Positions 27,323 through 48,525 of a DNA stretch of 64,000 nucleotides are shown here, piece after piece (position 1 is the stretch's first letter; each line of letters opens with the position of its first letter). The translations under genes and the position numbers were made by a program. The notes under the pieces were generated by a model. It was not told the origin of the DNA and ran no database searches. It saw only the letters and a list, made by a program, of their open reading frames with translations. The DNA lies in IMG/VR virus record IMGVR_UViG_3300032093_000109, positions 1,314 to 65,313 of that record. One strand, written 5' to 3'. The stretch is from a virus (Duplodnaviria > Caudoviricetes).

Positions 27323-27720
27323 GAGTCAAGTACGTCAGCAAGAACACGGCGCTCAACCCTGTGGCCCGTGCGATGGCGCAGAAGAAGCTGGCTGATGACC
27401 TGACCACCCGCAAGATCAGGTTGTACATGATGCAAGATGGTGAGCCGTGCGCTGACCTGCTGGAGAACTTGGCCGTGATGTTAGCAACCATTGGTGTAGC
27501 CTCCGAGCTTGACCCTGACGTTGGCGGTGAGGATGTAGGTGTACGCATCCTGCGCGGTGGTATGTCCGCATGCCAAGCCCTGATCAAGACCGACAAGTGG
27601 GACTCTACTCAAGCTGTATCTATTGAACGTGCGCTGGACGAGGCCCAGCTACTGAACAAACGAGTGCACCCTGTGTATATTGCACGGGCCAACTCCATGA
27701 GAAATGAGGTAATGAAATGA
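27319..27720 (+). CDS. hypothetical phage protein
   Basis: ATGA-coupled; NPVARAMA...RILRGG.SA. Confidence 0.65.
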   Translation: MRVKYVSKNTALNPVARAMAQKKLADDLTTRKIRLYMMQDGEPCADLLENLAVMLATIGVASELDPDVGGEDVGVRILRGGMSACQALIKTDKWDSTQAVSIERALDEAQLLNKRVHPVYIARANSMRNEVMK

Positions 27721-28325
27721 GATACGAACAAGCCAAACCACTGGTCGAAAAGCTGATGGACATAGCCGTGCTGTACCACGGAGCGCCGAGCATGCTGCGC
27801 GAGAAGGTGTACAACGCACTGGACGAGTTCCTGCCCACCCTTGATGAAGGTTGCCGTGAGCGTGGGTGTATTGCAATAGACGACTTCAAGGAGAAGCCAT
27901 GAAAATAGATGAACGAATCTGGCCTCTGCCCAACGCTTTCAACATCCGTGAGGGCAGTCCGTTTGGTAAGAGCGACAAGATGATTAAGGACCAAGAGCAA
28001 TCCCTCAAGGCATCCAAGGCGGGGCAAGCCCATCGAGCCAAAACCGTAGACACTCGCTTCAAACACAAAGGAAAGTAAATGAACGAACATGAACTGGACC
28101 TACTCGTAGCAGACCTGCAATATGAAAACAGACAACTCCGCAACCAAAGAGACAACGCAATCGAAGAAGCAATCCACTTGCGCCATACCCTTGAACACAT
28201 CTACGCCAAGTGTGTTCTGGCCATTCGAAAGGGTGAACCCGAAAATACTGGAGGCGATGCACCGAGCCACGCTGACAAAGCGGCGTACTGATCACCTAGC
28301 CGACCTCGGAGAAGCTACGCTATGA
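27717..28325 (+). CDS. small hypothetical genes (27717-27902, 27899-28078, 28079-28291 and overlapping 28122-28325)
   Basis: Coupled start/stop junctions. Confidence 0.5.
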
Positions 28326-28600
28326 GCCACAAACCTCGGAAAATAATGGCCGTAGAAATGCGAGCCCTTGGCATGACATACAGAAAAATTGGGGAAAACC
28401 TCGACGTGTCACCAACCCGTGCACAACAGCTTGTTATTGCGGGTAAGCGTGTGTTTGCGCGGCGCTTGCAGGCAGAAGCGAGGGCGTACGAAGAAAGATG
28501 CAACGACGGTCATTTCAAAACGTATGAACTACAAATGCTACTGCCCCTGCTCGGCTTCTTGAAGGAGATAGCCGATGGTCCAACAACAGATTCAAAATAA
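28322..28600 (+). CDS. sigma70-region-4-like HTH protein
   Basis: MR..GMTYRKIG..LDVS.TRA.QL. Confidence 0.65.
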   Translation: MSHKPRKIMAVEMRALGMTYRKIGENLDVSPTRAQQLVIAGKRVFARRLQAEARAYEERCNDGHFKTYELQMLLPLLGFLKEIADGPTTDSK

Positions 28601-28612
28601 AGGAGCACTGAT

Positions 28613-28834
28613 ATGAGCAACGAACAAAACGCGCTGGACGTACAAGTCGGCGGCGATCACTACAAGAAGCTGAAGATTCAGCCCATCGAGTACATCCACG
28701 CCAACCAGCTTCCATACTGCGAAGCCAACGTGGTCAAGTACATCAGCCGCTGGCGCGACAAGGGCGGCATCAAAGATTTAGAGAAGGTCAAGCACTACGT
28801 CGACCTGCTCATCGAACTCGAACACCTCAAATAA
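28613..28834 (+). CDS. DUF3310 (SaV-like) protein
   Basis: QVGGDHY...IQPIEYI...NVVKYISRW..KGG..DLEK..HY. Confidence 0.85.
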   Translation: MSNEQNALDVQVGGDHYKKLKIQPIEYIHANQLPYCEANVVKYISRWRDKGGIKDLEKVKHYVDLLIELEHLK

Positions 28835-28842
28835 ACAGTACC

Positions 28843-28983
28843 CCAACACCCTATGATGGCCGACTGCGCGAAGCCTTGCAGATGTAAACCGCAGTCGTGT
28901 GTGCGCGGGGTGTTGGATTTTTTGTACGCGCACACAATCCAATAACACGAAACGAGGGGGCGTGTAATCTGCATAACCCCCTC
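28843..28983 (+). ncRNA. unidentified multi-pseudoknot structured RNA
   Basis: Five perfect 7-10 bp helices in a ~170-nt intergenic gap (see findings); strand inferred from the operon. Confidence 0.65.
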
Positions 28984-29003
28984 ACCCAATCTGAAAGATA
29001 CCA

Positions 29004-29315
29004 ATGGCAGCAACGCCTGAATCGAAAGTAAAGAAGCAAGTCGTCGAGATACTCAAGCACGAGCGTGTGTACTACTTCTACCCAGTCACGGGCGGCTTTG
29101 GACGCAGCGGTGTACCTGACATCGTCTGCTGCTTGAACGGGCGCTTCTTTGGTATAGAGTGCAAGGCGGGCACCAACAAGCCCACCGCACTACAAGAGGC
29201 CGAGATGGCCCGTATAAGACTCGCTGGCGGCAAGACGCTGGTGGTCAACGAAACAAACCTCAACGATGTAAAGGAGTTAGTAGCATGGATAAAGAAGCAG
29301 CCGCAAGAGAACTGA
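29004..29315 (+). CDS. VRR-NUC domain nuclease (resolvase-like)
   Basis: E..VK...GVPDI...IECKA....PT.LQ. Confidence 0.85.
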   Translation: MAATPESKVKKQVVEILKHERVYYFYPVTGGFGRSGVPDIVCCLNGRFFGIECKAGTNKPTALQEAEMARIRLAGGKTLVVNETNLNDVKELVAWIKKQPQEN

Positions 29316-29554
29316 TCGACAGCGTAGCATCGCTGCCCCACGGAGCCGCCGTACACGTGGCGCTTACCATACGGGAGTTGATACGCTGCGCTAATGATGG
29401 GCACTCGCTTGTATTGATACTTCAGGACAAAAGCGAAGTTGCTCAGATGCACGCCTTCGGCGACAAGGACGTGGTGTTCGAGCTCGTGTCCTGCGCATAC
29501 GAGACGGTGCTCAACGAGCAGATGCACAGCACACCAAGCGGGGTGATGCAATGA
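29285..29554 (+). CDS. hypothetical protein
   Basis: AAGGAG RBS; stop overlaps the polA start. Confidence 0.55.
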   Translation: MDKEAAARELIDSVASLPHGAAVHVALTIRELIRCANDGHSLVLILQDKSEVAQMHAFGDKDVVFELVSCAYETVLNEQMHSTPSGVMQ

Positions 29555-31578
29555 GCATGCCCTTTGATCGACTCATCGTGCTGGACTTCGAGACAGCATG
29601 GGGTCGTACCGCTAAGCTGGGCTTCTCGTGTCAGACAACCGAAGAATACCTCCGTGACCCACGCTTCAAAGCATGGGGCCTGTCATGGAAAGACATTGAC
29701 CTCAGCAACCCGCAGCTGTGGCAACCCGGCCAACCCATCAGGACTGGTGCTGTGTGGGTCAGGGGCTCAGGCATCAAAGCGTGGGGCGAGGACATTGACT
29801 GGAGCCGCACCGCAGTGGCATGCCAGAACACCCAGTTCGATGGCGCTATCCTGTCTTGGGTCTACGGCATCCGCCCTGCCTTCTTGTTCGATACCCTGTC
29901 GATGGCACGCGCACTGTACGGCATCGAAGCAGGCAACAGCCTGAAGAAACTCGCCGAGCGCTTTGAGCTGCCACCCAAGGGCGATGGGCTTGCGTCCTCC
30001 GAGAACATTCTGGACGCGCTGCCCTTTGTGATTGAGCAGGAGTTGGCCGAGTACTGCAAGCACGACACGTGGTTGTGTGAACAGATTCTGCTGCGCATGC
30101 TGCCCGGATACCCCGCCAGTGAGCTGCGCCTGATCGACATGACGCTTCGCATGTTCACAATACCTGAGCTGGAGCTCGATGCCAACATGCTCACGCAAGC
30201 ACTGCTTGAGGAGAAGCTTAACCGTGGGGCGTTGCTCAACCGCCTGAAAATCACGGACTCGGTGCTGGCATCCAACGATCTGTTTGCCGAGGCACTGCGC
30301 CAGCTGGGCATCGAGCCCCCGACCAAGAAAAAAAAGCCCACGGCCAAAACGCCCAAGCCTGTCGGTGTGAACTTTGCCTTCGCCAAGACCGATGCGATGT
30401 TCCAAGCCATGCTCAACGGTGACAACGAGGACGTGGCCCTGCTGTGTGAGGCGCGTCTGAAGGTCAAGTCCACATCCGAGCGCACCCGTGCGCAACGCTT
30501 TCTGGACATCAGCAACCGAGGCACGCTGCCTGTGCCGCTCTCATACTACGGCGCGAAGTCGGGGCGCTGGACCGCAGCCAAGGGCTCGGCCATCAACATG
30601 CAGAACTTAAAGCGCGGGTCCTTCCTGCGCAAGGCCATCATGGCCCCCAAGGGTAAGGTGCTGGTGGTGGGTGACTTGAGCCAGATCGAACCGCGTGTGT
30701 TGGCATGGCTCTCGGACTACGACGAGATGCTGGCGATCTTCCGCGCTGGCGGTGACCCGTACGCTGCGTTCGGTGCGCAGATGTTTAACCTGCCCGGTAT
30801 GACCAAGGACTCGCACCCAGTGCAGCGACAGTCAGCCAAGTCAGCGCTGCTTGGTGCAGGCTACGGTCTGGGTTGGGCATCGTTCGCTGCTCAGTTGTTG
30901 GTGGGCTTCCTCGGGGCTCCGCCCTTGCGCTACACAAAGGCCGACGCCAAGCAGCTGGGTATCACAGGCCGGCATGTGCACAGCTTCTTGGAGAACAAGC
31001 ACCACATGGAGAAGATGTTTGAGATCGCCCACATCTGCACGGACGAGGAGCTACTCATTCACTGCGTAACAGCCAAGGCCATCATCGACAAGTACCGCGC
31101 CACAGCGCAGCCTGTTGTAGGTCTGTGGAACCTGTGCGGTGAGCTCATCGAGCACAGCCTGTACAACGGCAACGAGTACACGCACAAGTGCCTGACCTTC
31201 CGCAAGGAGGAGATCGTGCTGCCCAACGGCATGAGCATCATCTACGACGGGCTAAAGCCCAGCAAGGACGAGGAAGGCAGATTGCAGTGGACATACGGCG
31301 CAGACGATGATAAGCTGTACCCCGGAAAAGTCGTGAACAACATCACACAGGGGACGGCCCGTATTGTGATGACCGATGGCATGTTGCGGGTAGATAAACG
31401 CTACCCTTGCAAGGGAACGGTGCACGACGAACTCTTGGCTTTGGCTCTTGAAGAACACTCTCAGGAGGCACTGTCGTGGGTGATCGCGCAGATGACGAAG
31501 GAGCCGAAGTACATGCCGGGTATCCCGCTGGCAGCAGACGGTGGTGTGCACCGCAGGTACGGGCTTGCAAAGAATTGA
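29551..31578 (+). CDS. polA: DNA polymerase family A with 3'-5' exonuclease
   Basis: ExoI LDFET; motif A DLSQIEPR; motif B RQSAKSALLGAGYG; motif C VHDE. Confidence 0.95.
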   Translation: MSMPFDRLIVLDFETAWGRTAKLGFSCQTTEEYLRDPRFKAWGLSWKDIDLSNPQLWQPGQPIRTGAVWVRGSGIKAWGEDIDWSRTAVACQNTQFDGAILSWVYGIRPAFLFDTLSMARALYGIEAGNSLKKLAERFELPPKGDGLASSENILDALPFVIEQELAEYCKHDTWLCEQILLRMLPGYPASELRLIDMTLRMFTIPELELDANMLTQALLEEKLNRGALLNRLKITDSVLASNDLFAEALRQLGIEPPTKKKKPTAKTPKPVGVNFAFAKTDAMFQAMLNGDNEDVALLCEARLKVKSTSERTRAQRFLDISNRGTLPVPLSYYGAKSGRWTAAKGSAINMQNLKRGSFLRKAIMAPKGKVLVVGDLSQIEPRVLAWLSDYDEMLAIFRAGGDPYAAFGAQMFNLPGMTKDSHPVQRQSAKSALLGAGYGLGWASFAAQLLVGFLGAPPLRYTKADAKQLGITGRHVHSFLENKHHMEKMFEIAHICTDEELLIHCVTAKAIIDKYRATAQPVVGLWNLCGELIEHSLYNGNEYTHKCLTFRKEEIVLPNGMSIIYDGLKPSKDEEGRLQWTYGADDDKLYPGKVVNNITQGTARIVMTDGMLRVDKRYPCKGTVHDELLALALEEHSQEALSWVIAQMTKEPKYMPGIPLAADGGVHRRYGLAKN

Positions 31579-39607: not shown

Positions 39608-39788
39608 CTACCCATGGGACAGGCTGGAGAAAGGGCAGGGGTTCTTCATCCCTGCCCTCGACCTTGAGAAAGCCAGAGAAGACGGACTGATTGCAGCTAT
39701 GCAGGTCCGCTTCTTCTACCCCCACTACATGTACGTCATCAAGGACGGACTCATTGGGGTCTGGTTCTACCGAACGCCCATCACTTAG
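39597..39788 (+). CDS. small conserved phage protein
   Basis: YPW..LE.GQGFFIP.LD; converges with the giant gene. Confidence 0.6.
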   Translation: MRINYPWDRLEKGQGFFIPALDLEKAREDGLIAAMQVRFFYPHYMYVIKDGLIGVWFYRTPIT

Positions 39789-42700
39789 CCATCCGCGCAA
39801 CCTCTTTGACCTGCTCCGCCAGCTTGCGCTGGTACAAGTCAATCTCGTTCAGGCGCTCGCGCTTCTCTGCGGCGCTGAAGTCCGGGTCGCTGTTGATGGC
39901 TCGGCGCATCGCAGCCAGCTCACCCATGGCCTGTTGGAAGCTACCACCGGTAGAGCTCAGCGCGATCTCACGTGCATACTTGTCGGCGAAGGCCCGTGCC
40001 TCGGCCTGACGGCCGTCCGTGACCAACCGCTTGAACGTGCCGGCTGCCTGCTGCCAGTCCTCAACATCCGCGTACACCGACGCCACGATACCGCGCCCGT
40101 TGTTGGGTTGGAACGCAGCGCCGAAGAATGGTGTCTCGGTGAGCTTGCTCTCGGCGTTCTCTCCTGCAGTGTCGCTGTTGAACGGGCGCAGTACCGGGTT
40201 GACCAAAGACATTGTCAAGATACCAAGGCTGCCGGTGTAGCCGCGAACCAAGTGCTCGACCTGCAGCGGAGACACGCCGACTTGTCCCATCAGCTTGGCC
40301 AGCTCCGTGGTGTTGGGGCGGTAGCGCTCGGCCGGGATGGTGCCCAGTTCGCGCTGGCTCTCGATCGGTGCCTTGGTAAAGAAGCTGTAGTTGGCCATCG
40401 ACTCAATGATGGGCTTGGCAATCGTTGGGATGTCGCCGGGAATGGACATACCCAGAACGTGACGCAAGCCCTTCAGTGTGTCCTTGGATTCGGCATCATT
40501 AAACGCTGCGTTGAAAATCAACTCAGGGATGGCTTTGGCCACAGCACCGACTTCAAACGGGATTGGTATCCGAATCGCCGCCTCAAGTCCGGGTACAGGG
40601 ATGAACCAGTTCATGGCCCGTTCTTCTGGCGTGGCGTTTTTGTACGCCTCGTCGTCTTGCATGGCCACAGCGTACGCCAAGGTAGCGCCCATCATCAATG
40701 CTGCGCGTTGGTACAGCTTCTGACGAACCTGCAGCTTGTCTTGGAAGACCGTTTCGCCCGTCACACCCGTGCGCCAGACCGAGTCCAGACCTTGGAGCTG
40801 AGCGTTGAAGAACGGGATCAGCGTGGAGATCATGTACAGGCTGGTGGACGTACCCCGGCGTGAGAAGTTCATCACCTCGGCGGCACCCAGCGCGGCTTCG
40901 AAGTGGCTCATGCCTTGCTCACGGTACTTGTCGTACAGCACAGCGCGGGTAGCGGTATCGCCTTGCAGGGCGAAGTTGTCCAGACTCTGCATTGCAGAAC
41001 TCCAGCTCATGCCGCCTTGATTGGCCAAGTCCCGCAGGGTGCGTGAGGCGTCGTTAAAGTCGCCCGTCATCACGTTGGAGCTGACAGCGCCGGAGCGCAT
41101 GAGTTTAATTTCGGTTGGGCTCAGGCCACGGCGAATCTTCGTCATCTCTTTGATCGAGCTGACAATAGGCGTGAAGTTCAAGCCCGTGACCATCCAAGCG
41201 TGCAATGGGTCACGGATCATCTGGCGGATCATGTACAGGGGCATGCGAACAATAGACGAGCGCAGCCATTGCGTTGGCATACCAGCAATTTTCAGCGCCG
41301 TAGGTACGGACGCTTTGATACCGTGCAGACCTTGGAGCAGTAGCTCGGCAGGAATATCTTTGGGGAACAGGTCCGCATCTAACTTGACCCAGAACGACTT
41401 GCCGGCCTGCTTGAAACGAATTGAGTTGGCCGGACCCTCGCCTTCGACGATCGTACCCATACCCAAGCTCTGCACCATGTACCCTACATCACGCGCTTGC
41501 AAGTTTTGCATGGACATGCGGGTGAGCAACTGGGCGTTCTGCATCACGCTCTCAGTAAAGCCGAGGAAGTCTTTCTCCCCGCCAACCAAGTCCTTGAGCT
41601 GGGGCTGCTGAATGACGTTACCAATTGTGCGGCGGGTGTTACCCACAAGCATCTCGATGTTGCCGTTATCCGTCTGGCGATAAAACGGCACGTAGTTACC
41701 GCTCTTAAAGTAGTTCCACTCCGCGTTTGTGAAGACGCCCGCAGCGTGCGCAAAGTCCAGCATACCTAAGTTGTACTCACGGAACTCTTTCTCCGCCTGC
41801 TCAAACGCTTGCTTGACCTTGGGGTTCTTTGCGATGAACTCCTTCTGCTCACGGATTTCTCGAACAGTTGGAGGGTTGCGCATGTTGAGCACCTCATACC
41901 CGCGCTTGTCGCCCTCAATACGCTTGATCTGCATGTACTTGTAGAACTGCTCTTCGACGGCCTTCATGTTGCCGATGTCTGGCACAGCGCCGCGCAGGGT
42001 CTGCAGTACCTTCATGACCGACGGCTTCTTGTCATCCACGTCTACGCCGAAGTAACCCTTCTCGTCCTTGACCAACTTCAAAGGGCCGTTCAAAAGGGCT
42101 TGGTGTACAAAACGGTTGATCTCACTGTACAAGCGCATGTAGATGCGTGTCTGCATGGCATCGGTCTCGGTCAGCTTCTTGCCGCTTAGACCCATCTGCA
42201 CCAGAGCTTCACGTGCGCCCCATGCGTCCAGTGTTTTGACGCGCAGACCCAGCGCCCATGTGGAAAGCTTTTCGTTGAAGGTTTTGCTGCGTTGATCGCT
42301 GCCGCCGAAGGACCGCCGCATGCTCTCAGGCACATTGGCGTTGTACTTGGCGTTGTCGCCGGGGACGATACCCCGCATGACCGAGGCGACGCGGGCAGCC
42401 GCGATAGGCTGTGCAGGAGCAAACAGCTTGTAGATGTTCTCGACGGCTTGGTCAGAAACAGTCTTTGGCGAGAAGCCCAGCATGCGCAGAATAGCGTCGT
42501 ACATGCGCTGCAGAACACCGCGCTCGTCCAGCATGTTGCGCAGCTTGTTGTTGGACATTACCTCGGAGACCATCTCTTCCACGGAGTACTTGGCGTACTC
42601 GCGGTTGAAACGGGGGTCGGCCTGCACTTTTGCAAACAGGCTTTCCAAGTCTTGACGGGCTTGGCGCTGCTCGGGGGTCAGTGTGGCTGGGTCTGCGCGG

Positions 42701-45700
42701 AGCAAAGTCAAGGTAGCGGGGTGCACCACCTCGTGCAAGAACGCTTCCTCAGTCATGCCGGTGACGCTGCTGATCTGGACCTGCATGTCTTTGCCGACGT
42801 ACAAACCTTCCACAGGCACGCCGTTGGAGTCCACCACGTTGGGGTTGGAGACGAGCGTCACACCTTTGAGGTACGGGGCCACGAGCTTAGCCAGCTCACG
42901 CACGAAAGGCGTGGAGCCTTCTTCTTGCAGACGGACCAAAGCGTCTTCCAGATTACCGGAGCGCACTTCTTCCTTGACCGTGGTGGGCAGCTCTGTGGTT
43001 GGGCGAGCGTCGTAATCCGCGTTTCGGATTACAGAGGCGTGAGTGTCGTCTCCGTAGTACATGTCACCGATAACGTCCTGCAAGTAGTTTGCTTCTTTGG
43101 ACGCTTTTGGTGCGCGTGTTGGTTGCTTTTTCTTTTTCTTCTCGGCAGCAACGACCGCCTCTACGATTGGGGTAGCCTCTGCCTTGGCATCTTGCAGTTC
43201 TTTTGCGATCTTGTTGGCTGTCTTCTGCTCTTTCTTTCCAACAGGTGTGTCGCGTTGCTTGGTGCCGCGTGCCTCTTCAATCTTGGTCTCAGGCACGGGG
43301 ACGTTCTTGTCATTGATGCTTTCTTCAGACGCAGTGCGAAGCTTACGAGGCGCTGCAGATTGCTTTCGAGTAGCAGGGCCTGTGCTCTGCGTATTCGCTG
43401 CGTTCTGGATGTCGCGTAACTGGCTCAGTTTGTAGCGGTACTCACCCAGCAACGCCCTAGCGTTTTGAGTAGCAACGGAGTCACCGCTTTCTTGCGCGGC
43501 GTCAAAGTCTGCCTGCGCATCTTTAACTTGTTGCTCCGCATCCGACAACGCCTTGGCGTTTACATTACGGGGTTCGGCCAAACGTGCTTGACGTGCCTCG
43601 TTCAAACCGTCCAGCTTAGTCTGCGCTGCAGCAAGCGCGGCTTCTGCGTTCTTGACGGCTTTGGGTTTGCCTTGTTCTTTGGCTGCATCCAACGCAGCCC
43701 GCACGTTTCTGACTTGCTTCTCGGCGGCACTGATTGCATCCAGTTCGCGGTCTCGCGTCTCGGCCATTTGAGCGGCTTGCTCTTGGCGCTGCTGTTCCGG
43801 CGTTTTAATGGCGGTTTTGGTAACACCCGTTCTGCGGCCAATCTTGGCGTCGCGTTCGTTGAGTTGCTTCAACAGGTTGTCGATCTTCTGCTGCTGCTTA
43901 GCCCGCTTCGGCTTCTCAAGTTCTGCACGGTTTGCCCCGCGCTCGACGGCCTTACGCTCTTTCTGGTTAAGCAGCTCCCCTGCCAACTTATCGCGTTCTT
44001 TGGCGAGGTTCTCCAAAATAATCGCTCGGGCGCGTAAATCGTCCTGCAGGGTAGCGTCGCGCTTTTCTCTGCTGAGTTCCACCTCGGCCTCTACTGCGCG
44101 AAGGGCGGCAACCGCTGCAGCACGCTCGTCTGCACTCAAAGCAACGAGGTTTTTATCCACACCGCTTTCAACCCGCGCAATAAGCTCAGCCACCTTGTCT
44201 TTACCTAGATCACTGATGATGTCTTGAATCTGTTCACGGCGCTTTTCGAAGGACACCAGTGTGCGTGACGAGTAGACCGGCAACAGCGCTTCAATAGCCG
44301 CTTGTGTGTCTTTGCGCTCTGCCTTGGGTGCGACGCGGACGTTGCGGCGTTCGGTTTCTTTTTGTTTACCCTTGATGGCGTCTTTGTAGCGGTTAACCGC
44401 TTCGCGCATGGCGTCGGACTGCCGCGCCAACTCTGTCAGCTGCGCTTCAAGGGGTTTAACCAGCGCATCCATGCGAGTCTTCAAACCGGCTTCAACGTCT
44501 GCACGAATAGTGCGGGCCACGTCGGCGTCGGAACGCAACGCGTTGAGCTCTTGCACCAACTCCGGATCAGCACCCAGCGCTTTGAGCGCGGCATCGAGGC
44601 TACGCTTAGCGTTGTTGCGTGCTGTTGTCAGACCTGTCATGCGGCGGGACAGCGTGCGCAGCTCAAGCTGCAACGCAATATCTTTCTGCAAAAAGTCCAG
44701 TGTGCGCTCGTCTTTGCGTGCCGCCGGGTCAGTGGTCCACCAGAAACTGCGCATCTCGTTGATGAGTTTCTGATGTGTGTCTTGCACTTGCTTTTGAAGG
44801 CGTTGCAGCTCGTCTTTATCCGCAACCAGTGCGGCGTAATCGGGGGTCTTTTGGCTGACGCGCACATTTGTGCCGTACAGTTTGTTCCAAGCCTCGTCGT
44901 ATTTTTTCTTAGCGGCGTTGTAGAACGACGTGTAGCCTTGCAAAGTACGCAAGGTGTTCTTGACCTTGGTGACACGCTCGTCTTTTTGCTTTTCGCGCTT
45001 CTCGATAGCGTCGATGGCTGCGCTGAAATCCGCCTGCTGCGTTTCAATTTGGCTGGTGATTTGCTCCGAAGCAATCTTGGCTTCCGTCAGTTTGGCATAT
45101 GCGTTCCAGTACGCCATGTTGAACGGCAACAGCGCTTCGTCCATGTCCGCTTGCAGTTCCGACAGAGCTTTTTTGGTTTCTTGCACCAACGCTTCTGCCA
45201 CTGCTTTTTCAGGTGAGCCGTCAAGCTCTTGCTGAGCAGCGTTGCGCTGCGCGATCAGCCGCGCAATTTCTTCCTGCAACTCTTTTGCGCGTGTTTCCAG
45301 AGGGGCCATAAGCTTCTGCGCACGGGCTTGCGTTTCGCCAACAAGGTCAAGCGCGTCTCGCACTTGAGCCAACTCGGTGCTGGCCATGTAATTGTCGAAG
45401 TCGAGGAAGTCGGAGAACAGGGTGCCGATGTCTGCGGCAAACATGTCGGTTTGAACGGCACGGCGAACTTCGCCCGTGGCACGGCGATCCATGCCGCCTT
45501 CTTTGCCTTCGCGGCTGGTGCCACGCAGTGCTTCGCGCTCTTTGGGTGTGTACGCACGCCCCGCACGCTCAGTGACTTGCTCGGTCTCGGAGCGCTTTGC
45601 TTCGTCAATGTTGCGCAGAATGGCTTGCACTTCTTTGCGAAGCGTGGGGGACGGGTTGCCTGTGGTCAGGCCGTACAAATACTCGCCGACAATTTCTGTC

Positions 45701-48525
45701 GCGCTCTCGCCATCGACGCTTGCTTTTTTGATACCGGGCAAGTCGTCTTGGACGCGCTCAAACAATGCGCCATCTTCGTCAGACAAGCGGTTGGGATCAA
45801 CGCGCTCAACCAGCTTGTCGAGCATTGCGTCCGTGATACGTGCAGGGGTAAGCGTCCGTTCAACACCCGCGCCGCGTTTGGGGGCGATGGCTTTATTGCG
45901 GATTTCGTTCAAACCTTCTTCGATCGACTTGGCTGCAGCGTAGCGGTTGGCGAATGTGCGACGGCCGGGTATACGGCCTTCTTTACGCGCAACGCCCATA
46001 CCAGTGCCAGTCACGGCACCCTGCGCTTCAGGACTATCTTCCGGTACCAAGACGCGTTCGCCGTTGAGCTCGACTTCAACCATGTCGCGGGTATCGCCAA
46101 AACGGTCTTTCAACTCTTGCACTTGCTCTTTGGCAGCAGCAATAATCTGAGTCCGCTCCATGGCTGTGACAGGTTCGCCACGAACGGCTTCGATCTCGTT
46201 GACCAGCGTGTTGTACACCTGCTGTTCAGCGGCGTCCAGTTCATTCTGTTTGGCTTTACCTTTGTTGAAACGGTCAAGCAGCGTCACGGTTTTGGCGTAC
46301 GCAACGGCGCGAGCATCGGAGGCAGTTTGCGCAAGCCTTACGTCTTGCGGCTGCTTGGAGCCGAACACTTCTTGCAACGCACGGGTGTCTGTGCCACGAG
46401 GCGTGCTTTCTTTGGTTTCGCGCTGCTTGAGTTCTCGCAGTTCCTCAATGGTTCGCTCTGCCGCTTTTTTGTCGCCAAGAACACGCGCAAGCTGCAAATC
46501 GGCCTCAAGTTTGGCCCGAGTAGGCGTGCCGTCAACAACGCCGGAACCGCTGACAACATCTGACCGCAAGGTATCTTGTGGAAAGAGAGTTCCCTGCGCG
46601 GTTTGGCTGGTGTCCATACGCGCCAGCTTATTGATTTCGTCAAGCTCCGCCCGCAGTTCGCGCTCTCGAATTGCATAGCTAGCGGGGCGCGAGCCCATGT
46701 CCCGTAGGGCTTGTATCTCTCGCTCAATTTCGGCACGTCGGGCGTCTGCTTGCTCTCGCCCAATACCCATCTCGGAACCAAGCTGGCTCAAACGACTACG
46801 CAACCCTGCGCGAACCAAGTTAGCCTGCTCTATACTCATGCCCGGTAGCGCACCTCGGGTCTGGGCAACCGCCATAGCGCGGCCGGGGTCTTCTGCCAGA
46901 GCCTCGATCATCTGCTCGCCCGACAGCCGCACACCTTGGCTGGCGTCAATACCGGCCAGTGCCAACTCAGGGTTGTTGTCGATGGCTTCTTGCTTGGCGC
47001 GTTGTGTGGCCGCACTCAGTTGCTGCTGCACGTAGTACGGAATCTGTTCTTCTGCAGAAACAGGTGCTGATGGGAACGCTTCTGCGTCCACGCCTTCAGG
47101 CAAAGCTTCGCCGGACATGACGGCGCGGCGGCGGGGGGCACCTGTGCGAGGGTCACGCGTCGGGGTGCTTGGGATGCCAATGTCTTCTGCCAGCGCATCT
47201 TCAGGCGTCATTTCGGTCATGCGCTTGAGCTGGTTGATGCGTGGGGCCAAACCTTGGTACTGCTCTTTAAGCGCGTCGTACCCAACCTGCTGGCGCACTG
47301 CGCGAATCTGGTTGCTGATGTTGGTGTTGTGCTCACGGTCTTCATCGACCGTGGGGGAGTTCTTGACGATCTTGCGCTTTTGTTCTTGCAGGCTCTGGAG
47401 CTGCTGCGTGGCTTGCTCGTACTTGCTGGCGATGTCCAACGCGTATTCGTCGGACGCTTTGTAGTCGGCGTCTTTTTTGGCTTCTTGGGCAAGGCGCTCT
47501 TCTTCTGCCTTGCGGGCAGCAATACTCATGGAGCGATCGGGCAGGGCCACGCCCAGTGCCGCGCCACCCAGACCACCGGCCAACGCTTCTTGCGTGGCTT
47601 GACCCGCCACACCGGTAAACGCATCCACATCGCGCCCAGTGCGTTGCAAAGCCAAGTTGGCAGCCAAGCGCTCTTGACCGCCCTGCAGACCTTCGAGTGG
47701 GAATTCACCAGCGGCTGCAGTCAGACCCGTAGCTCCGCGCTCGCCAATACGCTTGGCTAAAGCCTGCTGGGCAGCGCCTGCCTGTGCACGAACACCACCG
47801 GGAATCAATCTTTCAGCACCGGTCGAGCCGGCCACAACACCCAAACCACCGCCCAGCAAGATTTGGTCCAAGTTCTCACCGACGTAACTTTGCGCACGGG
47901 CAGCGGCGGCTTGCGCTTCTTCAGGGGACTTTTTGTCTTCGAGCTCAGCTTGGAGCACCGCTTCATAGACGTTCTGTTTTACAGCGCCTGCACCTTGGGC
48001 GCCACCGATCGCACCGCGCACCGCCATGATGGCGCGTGCACCCAAACCAATTTTTGCCAAAGGCAGTGTGGCCACCATGGGCGCGAAGGAGCCCAGTGCA
48101 GAGGCGGTTGTCTGAATAGGCGCTTCAAGGACGTTGAGCAGACCGGCCTTAATTTCTTCCCAAGTGGAGCCGGACTCTTCGGCCTTCTTCATGCGAGCAG
48201 CTTGCGCTTGCAACTCGGCTTGGCGGCTGGTGCTCAGGCCCTTCTGGAGGGACTCGCCTGTCTCTGCAAGGTAGCGGGATGCTGCGTTGTCTGCACCAAA
48301 AATACTGGTTAAAGCACCAGTAGCCCCGACTGCGCCAGACGCAAACGAGCGCCCGAGATCGCCCAAGTAAGAACCTTGCTCTTTTGGTGGCTCTGGTGGG
48401 GGTGCAACTTCTTCTTGAAAAGCATCCGGAAAAAGCTGCATTGCCGCTAAGTACGCGTCTTCTGGACGTTGCCCCTTGCGGAGTTCAACAAGGTCACCGT
48501 TCGGGAGCTCAACGTATTGGGGCAT
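39781..48525 (-). CDS. large polyvalent/ejection protein (2914 aa) with zincin-like HExxH and LPD38-like C-terminus
   Basis: N-terminal Gly/Ala-rich segment, long coiled coils, FLHEVVH...EE.VSE, NFSRRG...IPFFNA.LQG...IPIPFEVG...SP.Q..H..RGYTG. Confidence 0.85.
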   Translation of the reverse strand: MPQYVELPNGDLVELRKGQRPEDAYLAAMQLFPDAFQEEVAPPPEPPKEQGSYLGDLGRSFASGAVGATGALTSIFGADNAASRYLAETGESLQKGLSTSRQAELQAQAARMKKAEESGSTWEEIKAGLLNVLEAPIQTTASALGSFAPMVATLPLAKIGLGARAIMAVRGAIGGAQGAGAVKQNVYEAVLQAELEDKKSPEEAQAAAARAQSYVGENLDQILLGGGLGVVAGSTGAERLIPGGVRAQAGAAQQALAKRIGERGATGLTAAAGEFPLEGLQGGQERLAANLALQRTGRDVDAFTGVAGQATQEALAGGLGGAALGVALPDRSMSIAARKAEEERLAQEAKKDADYKASDEYALDIASKYEQATQQLQSLQEQKRKIVKNSPTVDEDREHNTNISNQIRAVRQQVGYDALKEQYQGLAPRINQLKRMTEMTPEDALAEDIGIPSTPTRDPRTGAPRRRAVMSGEALPEGVDAEAFPSAPVSAEEQIPYYVQQQLSAATQRAKQEAIDNNPELALAGIDASQGVRLSGEQMIEALAEDPGRAMAVAQTRGALPGMSIEQANLVRAGLRSRLSQLGSEMGIGREQADARRAEIEREIQALRDMGSRPASYAIRERELRAELDEINKLARMDTSQTAQGTLFPQDTLRSDVVSGSGVVDGTPTRAKLEADLQLARVLGDKKAAERTIEELRELKQRETKESTPRGTDTRALQEVFGSKQPQDVRLAQTASDARAVAYAKTVTLLDRFNKGKAKQNELDAAEQQVYNTLVNEIEAVRGEPVTAMERTQIIAAAKEQVQELKDRFGDTRDMVEVELNGERVLVPEDSPEAQGAVTGTGMGVARKEGRIPGRRTFANRYAAAKSIEEGLNEIRNKAIAPKRGAGVERTLTPARITDAMLDKLVERVDPNRLSDEDGALFERVQDDLPGIKKASVDGESATEIVGEYLYGLTTGNPSPTLRKEVQAILRNIDEAKRSETEQVTERAGRAYTPKEREALRGTSREGKEGGMDRRATGEVRRAVQTDMFAADIGTLFSDFLDFDNYMASTELAQVRDALDLVGETQARAQKLMAPLETRAKELQEEIARLIAQRNAAQQELDGSPEKAVAEALVQETKKALSELQADMDEALLPFNMAYWNAYAKLTEAKIASEQITSQIETQQADFSAAIDAIEKREKQKDERVTKVKNTLRTLQGYTSFYNAAKKKYDEAWNKLYGTNVRVSQKTPDYAALVADKDELQRLQKQVQDTHQKLINEMRSFWWTTDPAARKDERTLDFLQKDIALQLELRTLSRRMTGLTTARNNAKRSLDAALKALGADPELVQELNALRSDADVARTIRADVEAGLKTRMDALVKPLEAQLTELARQSDAMREAVNRYKDAIKGKQKETERRNVRVAPKAERKDTQAAIEALLPVYSSRTLVSFEKRREQIQDIISDLGKDKVAELIARVESGVDKNLVALSADERAAAVAALRAVEAEVELSREKRDATLQDDLRARAIILENLAKERDKLAGELLNQKERKAVERGANRAELEKPKRAKQQQKIDNLLKQLNERDAKIGRRTGVTKTAIKTPEQQRQEQAAQMAETRDRELDAISAAEKQVRNVRAALDAAKEQGKPKAVKNAEAALAAAQTKLDGLNEARQARLAEPRNVNAKALSDAEQQVKDAQADFDAAQESGDSVATQNARALLGEYRYKLSQLRDIQNAANTQSTGPATRKQSAAPRKLRTASEESINDKNVPVPETKIEEARGTKQRDTPVGKKEQKTANKIAKELQDAKAEATPIVEAVVAAEKKKKKQPTRAPKASKEANYLQDVIGDMYYGDDTHASVIRNADYDARPTTELPTTVKEEVRSGNLEDALVRLQEEGSTPFVRELAKLVAPYLKGVTLVSNPNVVDSNGVPVEGLYVGKDMQVQISSVTGMTEEAFLHEVVHPATLTLLRADPATLTPEQRQARQDLESLFAKVQADPRFNREYAKYSVEEMVSEVMSNNKLRNMLDERGVLQRMYDAILRMLGFSPKTVSDQAVENIYKLFAPAQPIAAARVASVMRGIVPGDNAKYNANVPESMRRSFGGSDQRSKTFNEKLSTWALGLRVKTLDAWGAREALVQMGLSGKKLTETDAMQTRIYMRLYSEINRFVHQALLNGPLKLVKDEKGYFGVDVDDKKPSVMKVLQTLRGAVPDIGNMKAVEEQFYKYMQIKRIEGDKRGYEVLNMRNPPTVREIREQKEFIAKNPKVKQAFEQAEKEFREYNLGMLDFAHAAGVFTNAEWNYFKSGNYVPFYRQTDNGNIEMLVGNTRRTIGNVIQQPQLKDLVGGEKDFLGFTESVMQNAQLLTRMSMQNLQARDVGYMVQSLGMGTIVEGEGPANSIRFKQAGKSFWVKLDADLFPKDIPAELLLQGLHGIKASVPTALKIAGMPTQWLRSSIVRMPLYMIRQMIRDPLHAWMVTGLNFTPIVSSIKEMTKIRRGLSPTEIKLMRSGAVSSNVMTGDFNDASRTLRDLANQGGMSWSSAMQSLDNFALQGDTATRAVLYDKYREQGMSHFEAALGAAEVMNFSRRGTSTSLYMISTLIPFFNAQLQGLDSVWRTGVTGETVFQDKLQVRQKLYQRAALMMGATLAYAVAMQDDEAYKNATPEERAMNWFIPVPGLEAAIRIPIPFEVGAVAKAIPELIFNAAFNDAESKDTLKGLRHVLGMSIPGDIPTIAKPIIESMANYSFFTKAPIESQRELGTIPAERYRPNTTELAKLMGQVGVSPLQVEHLVRGYTGSLGILTMSLVNPVLRPFNSDTAGENAESKLTETPFFGAAFQPNNGRGIVASVYADVEDWQQAAGTFKRLVTDGRQAEARAFADKYAREIALSSTGGSFQQAMGELAAMRRAINSDPDFSAAEKRERLNEIDLYQRKLAEQVKEVARMAK

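What the first reader, a model, noticed from the sequence alone, without database searches (positions are those of the whole stretch)
28843..28983. Compact doubly pseudoknotted RNA upstream of the VRR-NUC/polA operon
SEEN: five perfect Watson-Crick helices in ~140 nt. A: CCAACACCC 28843-51 / GGGTGTTGG 28908-16. B: CGACTGCG 28861-68 / CGCAGTCG 28890-97. C: TGTGTGCGCG 28898-907 / CGCGCACACA 28927-36, crossing A (pseudoknot). D: GAGGGGG 28954-60 / CCCCCTC 28977-83. A kissing helix joins the loops of B and D: TGCAGAT 28877-83 / ATCTGCA 28967-73. An alternative helix TTGGATT 28913-19 / AATCCAA 28936-42 competes with A, suggesting a switch. This is one of very few gaps in a tightly coupled operon, and the next gene (29004) has no clear SD. 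INFERENCE: a ribozyme, riboswitch-like leader, or polymerase/SSB autoregulatory element. I cannot match it to hammerhead, HDV, twister or tRNA.
Basis: partly seen in the sequence, partly recalled or inferred. Interest (0 to 1): 0.78.

Follow-up and report, generated by a model that had tools for sequence, protein, structure and literature searches.

The report
New double-pseudoknot RNA family in phages
A compact, knotted RNA fold that sits directly behind a small early gene in many uncultured freshwater and marine phages is real, strongly conserved and matches no catalogued RNA family, so it is a good candidate for a new class of functional RNA.

Summary
Relatives support them by compensatory changes: 47 distinct viral-contig copies, 38 distinct metagenome copies and 77 distinct copies for helix A.

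I found one further helix, E (28945-49/28961-65). It makes the 3' half an H-type pseudoknot. The fold is therefore two H-type pseudoknots (A/C with hairpin B inside, and E/D), bridged by a 7-bp loop-loop helix K that covaries at two positions.

- **Strand:** G-U outnumbers A-C 4-6 fold, so the + strand folds.
- **Novelty:** no Rfam 15 family matches.
- **Switch helix:** it is window-specific and not conserved.
- **Gene association:** the element is not a leader of the VRR-NUC/polA genes. It starts at the stop codon of the upstream DUF3310 ("nucleotide kinase"-like) gene (47 of 65 loci). In 27 of 47 unique copies a sigma-70-type promoter separates it from the next gene. Relatives without it have overlapping genes there.

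Function is unproven. My best guess (about 0.35) is a protein-binding 3' module coupled to DUF3310. Rivals are a ribozyme, a free ncRNA or decoy, and a downstream regulator.

The parts
28613..28834 (+). Upstream ORF, 73 aa, DUF3310 / 'nucleotide kinase'-like. Its stop codon lies 8 nt before helix A.
   Evidence: ORF. Pfam DUF3310 E 9.2e-13. PHROG phrog_236 'nucleotide kinase' E 3.1e-23.
28843..28851 (+). Helix A, 5' strand (stem 1 of the 5' H-type pseudoknot).
   Evidence: 6 of 6 modelled pairs covary and 92.1% pair in 77 distinct copies. A cognate helix is present in 47 of 48 unique copies. Permutation test: 0 of 20000 reach the observed score.
28852..28860 (+). Linker between A and B (8-14 nt in relatives).
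28861..28868 (+). Helix B, 5' strand.
   Evidence: 8 of 8 pairs covary.
28869..28889 (+). Loop of B with conserved motif 1 (GCCTTGCAGATG, 28873-84). It contains K 5' strand TGCAGAT (28877-83), followed by a GNRA-like G-Y-R-A (28884-87).
28890..28897 (+). Helix B, 3' strand.
28898..28907 (+). Helix C, 5' strand (stem 2 of the 5' pseudoknot).
   Evidence: 10 of 10 pairs covary.
28908..28916 (+). Helix A, 3' strand. It lies in the loop of C directly after C 5'.
28917..28926 (+). Loop 3 of the 5' pseudoknot (ATTTTTTGTA). The U-run is not conserved.
   Evidence: A U-run of 4 or more occurs in only 8 of 32 representatives.
28927..28936 (+). Helix C, 3' strand.
28937..28944 (+). Linker between the two pseudoknots (pyrimidine-rich, often UCCUUUC, in many relatives).
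28945..28949 (+). Helix E, 5' strand (stem 1 of the 3' H-type pseudoknot). New here.
   Evidence: 4 of 5 pairs covary in an alignment whose model did not contain E. 5 of 5 covary and 98.4% pair.
28950..28953 (+). Loop 1 of the 3' pseudoknot (AAAC). It is a single A in most relatives, whose D is 6 bp.
28954..28960 (+). Helix D, 5' strand (stem 2 of the 3' pseudoknot).
   Evidence: 5 of 6 pairs covary.
28961..28965 (+). Helix E, 3' strand.
28966..28976 (+). Loop 3 of the 3' pseudoknot, conserved motif 2 (AATCTGCATAA). It contains K 3' strand ATCTGCA (28967-73).
   Evidence: K pair types: UA/CG at one position, AU/GC at another, and one GU.
28977..28983 (+). Helix D, 3' strand.
28984..29003 (+). 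3' tail up to the next start codon. It begins with A plus a pyrimidine-rich stretch, as in relatives. No promoter-like site and no clear SD here.
29004..29315 (+). Downstream ORF, 103 aa, VRR-NUC-like endonuclease.
   Evidence: PHROG phrog_93 'endonuclease' E 6e-20. 40% identical to annotated VRR-NUC proteins of Rhizobium phages. Pfam gave no family at E 0.001 or below.

Best explanation
**Shown**
- Window 28843-28983 encodes, on the + strand, one copy of a widespread and so far uncatalogued structured RNA of about 140-160 nt.
- Its fold is two H-type pseudoknots in tandem.
  - 5' knot: stem A pairs the 5' end with the start of the loop of stem C, and hairpin B is inserted in loop 1.
  - 3' knot: stem E crosses stem D, with no nucleotide between D 5' and E 3'.
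- The loop of B and loop 3 of the 3' knot carry near-invariant sequences that form a 7-bp helix K.
- The element has no sigma-70-type promoter of its own. It starts at or over the stop codon of the preceding ORF, which is usually a DUF3310 ('nucleotide kinase'-like, SaV-like) gene. It is an insertion, absent from most related phages.

**Inferred**
- It is made as the 3' extension of the early DUF3310 message.
- It works as a self-contained RNA module whose invariant K core and flanking loop bases are recognised by a protein.
- The partner is most likely the DUF3310 protein translated just upstream, either as an operator or antidote that limits that (elsewhere toxic) protein, or as its RNA cofactor. 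Less likely the partner is a host RNase, with the RNA defining and protecting the 3' end of the early transcript.
- It is not a leader that regulates VRR-NUC/polA.
For: **Fold**
- Helices are present in the window.
- Covariation on A5: 94.6% of cells pair against 65.0% shuffled (0 of 500) and 37-46% slid. B 8 of 8, C 10 of 10, E 4 of 5, D 5 of 6, K 1 of 7 pairs have changes on both sides. E and K were not in the model used to align.
- Replicated on metagenome copies: 91.8% against 62.2%, K 2 of 7.
- Helix A: 6 of 6 pairs covary, 92.1% pair in 77 distinct copies. Own-script permutation gives 19.21 against 12.49 +/- 0.51, 0 of 20000.
- In the rows listed by a scan that left K positions 3 and 6 and their partners free, every copy the model confirmed had complementary letters there, while unconfirmed chance hits had random ones. 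80 of 112 hits were listed.
- G-U against A-C cells: 76:13, 74:19 and 105:20.

**Family size**
- 65 viral contigs by strict pattern. 50 of 50 sources tested were confirmed by model R2 at 55-122 bits.
- 40 of 80 listed metagenome hits were confirmed, of which 30 are new sequences.
- There is one copy in the window's own complete genome.

**Link to DUF3310**
- A DUF3310-profile ORF ends 60 nt or less before motif 1 in 47 of 65 loci and lies within 4 kb in 57 of 65.
- Among the 80 VRR-NUC loci, 14 of 14 with the RNA hold DUF3310 against 24 of 66 without it (Fisher p 6e-6, not corrected for relatedness).
- The stop codon lies -17 to +19 nt from helix A in most copies.
- Relatives without the RNA have DUF3310 overlapping VRR-NUC by 6-29 nt (7 loci).

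**Transcription**
- 0 of 47 unique copies have a sigma-70-like site in the 120 nt before the element, against 27 of 47 after it.
- The nearest upstream ORF is on the same strand in 62 of 65.

**Background on DUF3310**
- A DUF3310 protein, SaV, is described as early-expressed and toxic on expression (passages of PMC8306868).
Against: - No experiment or RNA-seq shows the RNA or its ends. The one metatranscriptome contig laid covers 29239-29439 only.
- The DUF3310 link may be inherited synteny. The phages are related and the Fisher test ignores phylogeny.
- 8 of 65 loci show no DUF3310 within the DNA held, although 6 of the 8 have under 3 kb on one side. 18 of 65 have another ORF directly upstream, for example a helicase or small membrane proteins.
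- Nothing shows that DUF3310 proteins bind RNA. No solved structure matches.
- Near-invariance of the loop sequences is partly forced by the search pattern. Model-found variants differ: the L054 type in K, and the L007 type in motif 1, motif 2 and the topology of A and C.
- Alignments were fitted to parts of the structure, which favours those parts.
Confidence: 0.35

Rival explanations
1. Free-standing trans-acting RNA that merely rides on the early transcript. It could be a decoy or sponge for a host defence or RNA-processing protein or for a small signalling molecule. It could also be an RNA that assembles with itself through the complementary loops (K formed between molecules).
For: - Patchy, insertion-like distribution: 14 of 80 VRR-NUC loci carry it, and the genes overlap where it is absent.
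- It occurs beside unrelated genes in some loci.
- Loop sequences are conserved while all stems drift.
- The B stem length varies from 5 to 12 bp or more, which fits a flexibly tethered loop.
- In ROOL RNA, a kissing loop first read from covariation as a tertiary contact proved to be intermolecular (passages of PMC12286853).
- Motif 1 shares a 9-mer with the 3' end of one Cas12a crRNA handle. That handle is recalled from memory, and only its presence in print was checked.
Against: - It has no sigma-70-type promoter of its own (0 of 47), and a terminator follows only 2 of 51 copies, so release would need processing.
- The strong association with DUF3310 is not explained.
- The Cas12a resemblance is short, split and in permuted order.
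Confidence: 0.2
2. Self-cleaving ribozyme (a new class), or a specific RNase-processing site, that cuts the polycistronic early transcript between the DUF3310 cistron and the replication genes.
For: - The fold is compact and multiply pseudoknotted, with about 25-30 highly conserved loop nucleotides and freely covarying stems.
- It is intergenic, phage-borne and patchy.
- It lies at the end of a transcription unit that mostly lacks a terminator.
Against: - No match to any ribozyme model of Rfam 15 at E 10 or below (window) or E 1 or below (11 members).
- The topology does not fit the HDV, twister, pistol, hatchet or hammerhead layouts as I recall them.
- No cleavage data exist.
- Few newly found structured motifs turn out to be ribozymes, so the prior is low.
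Confidence: 0.12
3. Cis-regulator of the downstream replication genes. This is the first reader's reading: a riboswitch, a protein-binding leader, or a put/nut-like RNA that makes RNA polymerase resistant to termination.
For: - In the window and about 20 other unique copies, the next ORF starts 15-35 nt after helix D, most with an SD.
- It lies just upstream of VRR-NUC, PolA, helicase and primase genes.
- Two lineages have an intrinsic terminator right after it (L007, L116).
- The upstream kinase-like gene would suit a nucleotide-sensing logic.
Against: - 27 of 47 unique copies have a consensus promoter between the RNA and the next gene. Its -10 ends 7 nt before the ATG, so those mRNAs would not contain the RNA.
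- The downstream gene varies.
- There is no conserved expression platform. The proposed alternative helix is not conserved, the U-run after helix A occurs in only 8 of 32, and terminators follow 2 of 51.
Confidence: 0.12
4. DNA-level element, such as a replication origin or single-strand initiation site, whose hairpins form in single-stranded + strand DNA.
For: It lies next to replication genes. Helices in the sequence would also form in ssDNA.
Against: - G-U(T) pairs are 4-6 times as frequent as A-C.
- Orientation always follows the flanking genes.
- It is single-copy, with no AT-rich or iteron-like repeats noted.
- Pseudoknots with 0-1 nt loops are typical of RNA.
Confidence: 0.03

Closest known systems
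Phage mRNA pseudoknot operators, e.g. the T4 gene 32 autoregulatory pseudoknot (as described in a passage of PMC10690425)
   Same: A phage-encoded H-type pseudoknot on an mRNA in the replication gene region. It is proposed to be bound by the protein of the adjacent gene.
   Different: - That operator lies 5' of its gene and blocks initiation. This element lies 3' of its associated gene.
- This element has two pseudoknots plus a conserved loop-loop helix.
- Binding is untested here.
- That paper states no Rfam model exists for the gene 32 element, so no model test was possible.
ROOL and GOLLD RNAs (phage/prophage 'ornate' RNAs; PMC12286853, abstract and passages)
   Same: Phage-borne, with multiple pseudoknots, evolutionarily conserved kissing loops, unknown function and no known protein partner.
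   Different: - They are about 500-800 nt or more and often lie near tRNA islands. This RNA is about 145 nt and lies behind a DUF3310 gene.
- No tRNA is present in the window.
- Their Rfam models do not match.
Small self-cleaving ribozymes with pseudoknots (twister, pistol, hatchet, HDV-like, glmS). Layouts recalled from memory.
   Same: Compact fold with crossing helices, a few tens of invariant nucleotides, and frequent occurrence in phage intergenic DNA.
   Different: No Rfam hit. The helix order A-B-C-A'-C' / E-D-E'-D' fits none of them as recalled. Catalysis is untested.
phi29 pRNA (recalled)
   Same: A phage RNA with two loops complementary to each other, whose pairing covaries.
   Different: - pRNA loops pair between molecules to build the packaging ring.
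- pRNA lies at a genome end with its own promoter and has no pseudoknot within the monomer.
- It did not match in the Rfam scans.
Type III antitoxin RNAs (ToxI and relatives; recalled)
   Same: A pseudoknotted RNA encoded next to a small protein that can be toxic, which it binds and neutralises.
   Different: - Those are short tandem repeats placed upstream of the toxin gene and processed by the toxin.
- This is a single 145-nt unit downstream of the gene (one copy per genome).
lambda nut / HK022 put antitermination RNAs (recalled)
   Same: A cis-acting RNA placed directly after a small early gene and before the replication genes.
   Different: - Those are one or two simple stem-loops followed by terminators.
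- Here terminators follow only 2 of 51 copies, and promoters follow 27 of 47.

Membership tests
Any Rfam 15 family (4227 models) | Score at or near the family's gathering threshold in cmscan | tested here: not met
   Window 28000-29800 at E 10 or below gave only two snoRNA chance hits at 15.6 and 12.8 bits, against gathering scores of 44 and 42. Eleven diverse members at E 1 or below gave one unrelated snoRNA hit, E 0.34.
Self-cleaving ribozymes (hammerhead, HDV-like, twister, twister-sister, pistol, hatchet, glmS) | Match to the family's covariance model / conserved core | tested here: not met
   No such model matched.
Self-cleaving ribozymes (any, including a new class) | Site-specific self-scission in vitro | not testable with these tools
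   Needs in vitro transcription and a cleavage assay.
Riboswitch | Aptamer lies in the 5' UTR of the regulated gene, with an expression platform (terminator or SD-sequestering alternative pairing) | tested here: not met
   A promoter lies between the RNA and the next gene in 27 of 47 unique copies. The alternative helix is not conserved. Terminators follow 2 of 51.
Riboswitch | Specific ligand binding | not testable with these tools
   Needs in-line probing or ITC.
Intrinsic terminator | G+C-rich hairpin with a short loop followed by a U-tract | tested here: not met
   0 terminator-like sites in window 27500-30500. The U-run after helix A in the window is present in only 8 of 32 representatives.
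tRNA / tmRNA | Cloverleaf detected by ARAGORN | tested here: not met
   0 genes in the whole window.
Type III antitoxin RNA | Tandem direct repeats of a short unit next to the toxin gene | tested here: not met
   There is a single unit per genome, and motif 2 is single-copy in the window. A tandem-repeat finder was not run.
RNA anti-CRISPR / solitary CRISPR repeat (Cas12a type) | A contiguous repeat-like hairpin that mimics the host's CRISPR repeat | tested here: not met
   The two halves that resemble the handle lie about 80 nt apart, with the 3' half first. The host and its CRISPR type are unknown. The resemblance rests on a recalled handle sequence, found in print in 134 papers (listing only).
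H-type pseudoknot (structural class) | The loop of one hairpin pairs with a strand outside it, and both stems are supported | tested here: met
   A crosses C and E crosses D. All four stems covary.

The most novel reading that the evidence does not exclude
The element is the founding member of a new class of catalytic or ligand-binding RNA. One possibility is a self-cleaving ribozyme. The other is an expression-platform-free aptamer that phages use to sense or soak up a nucleotide-type molecule. It is encoded next to a nucleotide-kinase-like gene and ahead of the replication genes.
Probability: 0.15. Interest if true: 0.92.

Novelty: categorically new. Interest (0 to 1): 0.8.

Why it matters
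New families of small, intricately folded natural RNAs with near-invariant loop cores are rare. They have repeatedly turned out to be ribozymes, riboswitches or RNA partners of unusual proteins.

- **How well supported it is.** The family is abundant: at least about 100 contigs from freshwater and marine samples. Each of five helices is backed by many compensatory changes, and there are two pseudoknots plus a covarying long-range helix within about 145 nt. The RNA is small enough for crystallography, cryo-EM with a scaffold, or chemical probing.
- **A handle on DUF3310.** Its tight coupling to DUF3310 gives a concrete way into a very common phage domain of unsettled function (T7 gp1.7-like 'nucleotide kinase', SaV-like toxic early protein).
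- **A usable search tool.** The models built here could be rebuilt and used to annotate phage genomes and to find an isolate in which the RNA can be studied.

They could already contain it.

Tried and rejected
1. **RNA-seq support.** Only one metatranscriptome contig (29239-29439) and one probable-DNA contig (29200-29329) lay on window 28300-29600. Neither covers the element, so nothing can be said about expression or ends.
2. **Prokaryote genomes.** The strict pattern hit 7 genome contigs. R2 confirmed 0 of 7. Two that I read are ordinary coding DNA. Seven is about what chance predicts by my own estimate, so no prophage or host clue came from this.
3. **Cultured phages.**
   - Megablast found none.
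   - Distant blastn matched only the DUF3310 gene.
   - The VRR-NUC-like protein finds 6 records at 40% identity or less.
   - The whole records of two of them (Rhizobium phage RHph_TM3_14A, Pseudomonas phage Rollin) hold no R2 match.
4. **Alignment methods.** MAFFT alignments mis-register the stems. The two-sequence model R1 mis-aligned about half the rows. I therefore used iterated models R2 and R3.
5. **Terminator reading** of helix A plus U6: not general.
6. **Switch helix:** not conserved.
7. **Coding reading.** Motif 1 is preceded by in-frame stops in most relatives, and the stems change without regard to codons.
8. **Second exact motif-1 11-mer** at 18147-57 on the - strand. There is no motif 2 or helices nearby, and R2 finds one copy only.
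9. **Cas12a-handle mimicry.** This is a short, split, permuted resemblance. I kept it only as a lead.
10. **Literature.**
    - 'DUF3310': 22 papers, 20 listed; I read passages of one.
    - The motif strings: 71 papers held at least one, and the 15 listed were unrelated.
    - 'structured RNAs/bacteriophage/covariation/pseudoknot/intergenic': 6 papers, with a term search in two.
    - 'pseudoknots/kissing/phage/metagenom/ncRNA/Rfam': 3 papers.
    - None describes this RNA. Supplementary tables were closed.
Full report
**What is in the window.**

- A: 28843-51 / 28908-16
- B: 28861-68 / 28890-97
- C: 28898-907 / 28927-36
- D: 28954-60 / 28977-83
- loop-loop pair K: 28877-83 / 28967-73
- the 'alternative' pair: 28913-19 / 28936-42

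The stretch is the 169-nt gap between a 73-aa ORF (28613-28834) and a 103-aa ORF (29004-29315). Neighbouring + strand ORFs overlap or abut.
- The upstream ORF is DUF3310 (Pfam E 9.2e-13) and matches PHROG 'nucleotide kinase' (E 3.1e-23).
- The downstream ORF matches PHROG 'endonuclease' (E 6e-20). It is 40% identical to annotated VRR-NUC proteins, although Pfam gave nothing at E 0.001 or below.
- A family A DNA polymerase follows.

The window is nearly all of a 65,313-bp virus record rated 100% complete. That record also encodes terminase, portal, helicase, primase/helicase and a 2914-aa ORF.

**Single-sequence tests are weak.**
- The nested MFE fold of the + strand is -53.3 kcal/mol, z -1.94, with 8 of 200 shuffles as good.
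- The - strand gives z -0.50.
- Rfam 15 gives only two sub-threshold snoRNA chance hits.
- There are no terminator-like sites and no tRNA.

**Relatives.**
- Of 80 viral-contig loci that encode a relative of the downstream protein, two are near-identical to the window's gap (L001, L002). A few others share only two short blocks.
- Aligning those showed two conserved blocks between stems whose sequences differ but stay complementary. Motif 1 is AGCCTTGYAGATGYRAA, in the loop of B. Motif 2 is GTAATCTRCATAY, in the loop of D.
- A gapped pattern made of the two motifs found 65 viral contigs, giving 49 unique sequences with the window.
- The same pattern in 185,579 species' genomes gave 7 hits. None is real: R2 confirmed 0 of 7, and I read two of them.
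Of the 80 listed, 40 were confirmed by the covariance model, and 30 of those are new sequences.
- Contig names and coded run labels point to freshwater, lake and marine (TARA) samples.

In every relative, five bases just before D 5' pair with the five bases just after it. In the window this is ACACG 28945-49 with CGTGT 28961-65. This helix E crosses D, so the 3' half is a classical H-type pseudoknot:
- E is stem 1.
- Loop 1 is a single A in most relatives. It is AAAC in the window, where D is 7 bp rather than 6.
- D is stem 2, with no nucleotide between D 5' and E 3'.
- Loop 3 is the conserved AAUCURCAUAY.

The 5' half is built the same way. A is stem 1, C is stem 2, and A 3' starts 0-5 nt after C 5'. 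Hairpin B sits in loop 1.

**Covariation.**

MAFFT mis-registers the stems, so I built covariance models. R1 came from the window and L002. R2 came from 26 well-aligned members with B, C and D. R3 came from 14 members with A, B and E.

| Alignment | Distinct copies | Cells paired | Shuffled control | Partners slid | Pairs with changes on both sides |
|---|---|---|---|---|---|
| A5 (aligned with R2) | 47 | 94.6% | 65.0 +/- 0.8% (0 of 500 reach it) | 37-46% | B 8/8, C 10/10, E 4/5, D 5/6, K 1/7 |
| A6 (metagenome set) | 38 | 91.8% | 62.2% | 37-45% | B 8/8, C 10/10, E 4/5, D 5/6, K 2/7 |
| A8 (aligned with R3) | 77 | 91.9% | 53.2% | 41-47% | A 6/6 (92.1% paired), B 8/8, E 5/5 (98.4% paired) |

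- E and K were not part of model R2, so their counts in A5 are not fitted.
- C and D were not part of model R3.
- An alignment-free check of helix A scored the best contiguous helix between the 40 nt before B and the first 16 nt of the C loop. A cognate helix sits at a fixed place in 47 of 48 unique copies, with about 19 different sequences.
- Cognate pairs score 19.21 against 12.49 +/- 0.51 for permuted partners, with 0 of 20000 permutations reaching the observed value (33 representatives).

**The loop-loop helix K.**
- Because the search pattern fixed most of K, variation is limited by design.
- Position 3 is U-A in most copies and C-G in the window and several others: 42 against 5 in A5, 35 against 3 in A6.
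- Members found by model rather than by pattern (L054, L056, L061, and L221 from the metagenome scan) have G-C instead of A-U at position 6.
- L002 has one G-U.
- The distant L007/L013 variant keeps GCAGAU/AUCUGC.
- A scan that left both variable positions and their partners free gave 112 hits, of which 80 were listed. Among the listed ones, every model-confirmed copy had complementary letters, while the unconfirmed ones showed arbitrary combinations.
- K is therefore a real pairing, but the number of independent changes is small: at least one at each of two positions.
- Whether K forms within one molecule or between molecules cannot be told from sequence. In ROOL RNA, a covarying kissing loop proved to be intermolecular (PMC12286853, passages).

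**Strand and molecule.**
- In the paired columns, G-U cells outnumber A-C cells 76:13, 74:19 and 105:20. The + strand is therefore the one that folds.
- The nearest upstream ORF is on the same strand in 62 of 65 loci.

**Variants.**
- L007/L013 have a short B loop, and A 3' lies before hairpin C, so there is no 5' knot. A clear intrinsic terminator follows.
- L083/L108/L264 lack helix A and have a short C loop.

**What it is attached to.**

Upstream:
- With crude ORF calls and BLAST clustering, the nearest upstream ORF is the DUF3310 cluster in 46 of 65 loci (31 of 47 unique copies).
- With a profile of that cluster on six-frame ORFs, a DUF3310 ORF ends 60 nt or less before motif 1 in 47 of 65 and lies within 4 kb in 57 of 65. 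Six of the eight without it have under 3 kb of DNA on one side.
- The upstream stop codon lies between -17 and +19 nt of helix A in most copies. The commonest distance is 8 nt, as in the window, and in several copies the stop overlaps the helix.
- Long forms of the upstream protein carry a weak HTH and an Arg-rich stretch before DUF3310. In the window, a separate 92-aa ORF with a weak HTH match precedes the DUF3310 ORF.

Downstream:
- The first downstream + strand ORF is the VRR-NUC-like cluster in 38 of 65.

Comparison of the 80 VRR-NUC loci:
- 14 carry the RNA (L001 and L002, and 12). All 14 hold DUF3310, against 24 of 66 without the RNA (Fisher p 6e-6, uncorrected for relatedness).
- Where DUF3310 directly precedes VRR-NUC without the RNA (7 loci), the two ORFs overlap by 6-29 nt. 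With the RNA, the gap is 184-293 nt. The RNA is thus an insertion into an otherwise coupled gene pair.

**Transcription signals.**
- By one criterion (at least 9 of 12 matches to TTGACA/TATAAT, spacer 16-18), 0 of 47 unique copies have a promoter-like site in the 120 nt before the element, and 27 of 47 have one in the 120 nt after it.
- By a related criterion the count is 28 of 51.
- In these copies the -10 ends 7 nt before the ATG of the next gene, so that gene would be expressed as a leaderless mRNA that does not contain the RNA.
- Only 2 of 51 have an intrinsic terminator after the element.
- In the window and about 20 other unique copies there is no such promoter, and the next start lies 15-35 nt after D, most with an SD.
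- The window itself has no clear SD.

**Ideas tested and dropped.**
- The U-run after helix A, which makes the window look terminator-like, occurs in 8 of 32 representatives.
- There is one copy per genome. A second exact motif-1 11-mer on the - strand at 18147-57 has nothing else of the element around it.

**How it most likely works.**

Shown:
- the fold
- the strand
- the insertion-like, DUF3310-linked placement
- the lack of a sigma-70-type promoter of its own
- the frequent promoter downstream

Inferred:
- The RNA is the 3' extension of the early DUF3310 message and acts as an autonomous module.
- Stems drift freely, while the K core and its flanks are held nearly constant across phages whose neighbouring proteins are only 55-68% identical. 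That calls for a sequence-specific partner or chemistry.

The partner that best fits the genomic coupling is the DUF3310 protein itself, acting as operator, antidote or cofactor. SaV, a DUF3310 protein, is reported as an early and toxic protein (PMC8306868, passages). I give this reading about 0.35.

| Rival reading | Confidence |
|---|---|
| Free trans-acting, decoy or self-assembling RNA | 0.2 |
| Self-cleaving or processing element | 0.12 |
| Regulator of the downstream replication genes | 0.12 |
| DNA-level element | 0.03 |

None can be settled without experiments. RNA-seq data gave no cover of the element.

**Comparison with what is known.**
- No Rfam family matches the window or eleven diverse members.
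- The element works like other phage mRNA pseudoknot operators or like small pseudoknotted ribozymes and aptamers. It is a member of none that I could test.
- Searches of the held literature for DUF3310, for the motif strings, and for phage structured-RNA surveys found no description of it.
- Supplementary candidate lists were closed and could hold it.
- The nearest cultured phages lack it.

I therefore rate it as a new RNA family of unknown function with a well-supported and unusual architecture.

Noticed in passing
L087:4414-4470 and 26 other unique loci (e.g. L088-L094, L100-L104, L117, L119-L121, L140, L145); absent in window 28984-29003: A consensus sigma-70-type promoter (TTGACA, 16 nt, TAnnAT) lies directly upstream of the VRR-NUC-like gene. 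Its -10 ends 7 nt before the ATG, so the gene would be expressed as a leaderless mRNA. The window keeps a similar SD-less start context but has lost, or never had, the promoter.
   Followed up: partly
window 28322-28600 and 28613-28834: A 92-aa ORF with a weak HTH match and the 73-aa DUF3310 ORF are separate genes here. In many relatives one 140-175-aa protein carries a weak HTH, an Arg-rich stretch and DUF3310. This is a split/fused gene pair.
   Followed up: partly
L007:2699-2870 and L013:2703-2832: A distant variant of the RNA. The B loop is short, and helix A 3' strand lies before hairpin C instead of inside its loop, so there is no 5' pseudoknot. The 3' pseudoknot and K are kept. In L007 an intrinsic terminator and then a promoter follow.
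   Followed up: partly
L083:470-610, L108:12970-13106, L264:470-610: A short variant without a detectable helix A and with a 6-nt C loop. The next ORF starts 6 nt after motif 2.
   Followed up: no
window 39781-48525 (- strand): A 2914-aa ORF whose C-terminal 630-670 residues match two PHROGs of unknown function. The rest is unassigned.
   Followed up: no
linker and 3' tail of the RNA in relatives (e.g. L100, L140, L103, L089, L098; window 28937-44 and 28984-92): The linker between the two knots is often UCCUUUC-like. The tail after helix D is A plus pyrimidines, often ending in CUAAC before the SD. Both are semi-conserved single strands of unknown role.
   Followed up: no
window 28884-28887 and the same place in relatives: The four bases after K 5' strand are always G-Y-R-A (GCAA, GCGA, GUAA, GUGA), a GNRA-like turn inside the B loop.
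   Followed up: no
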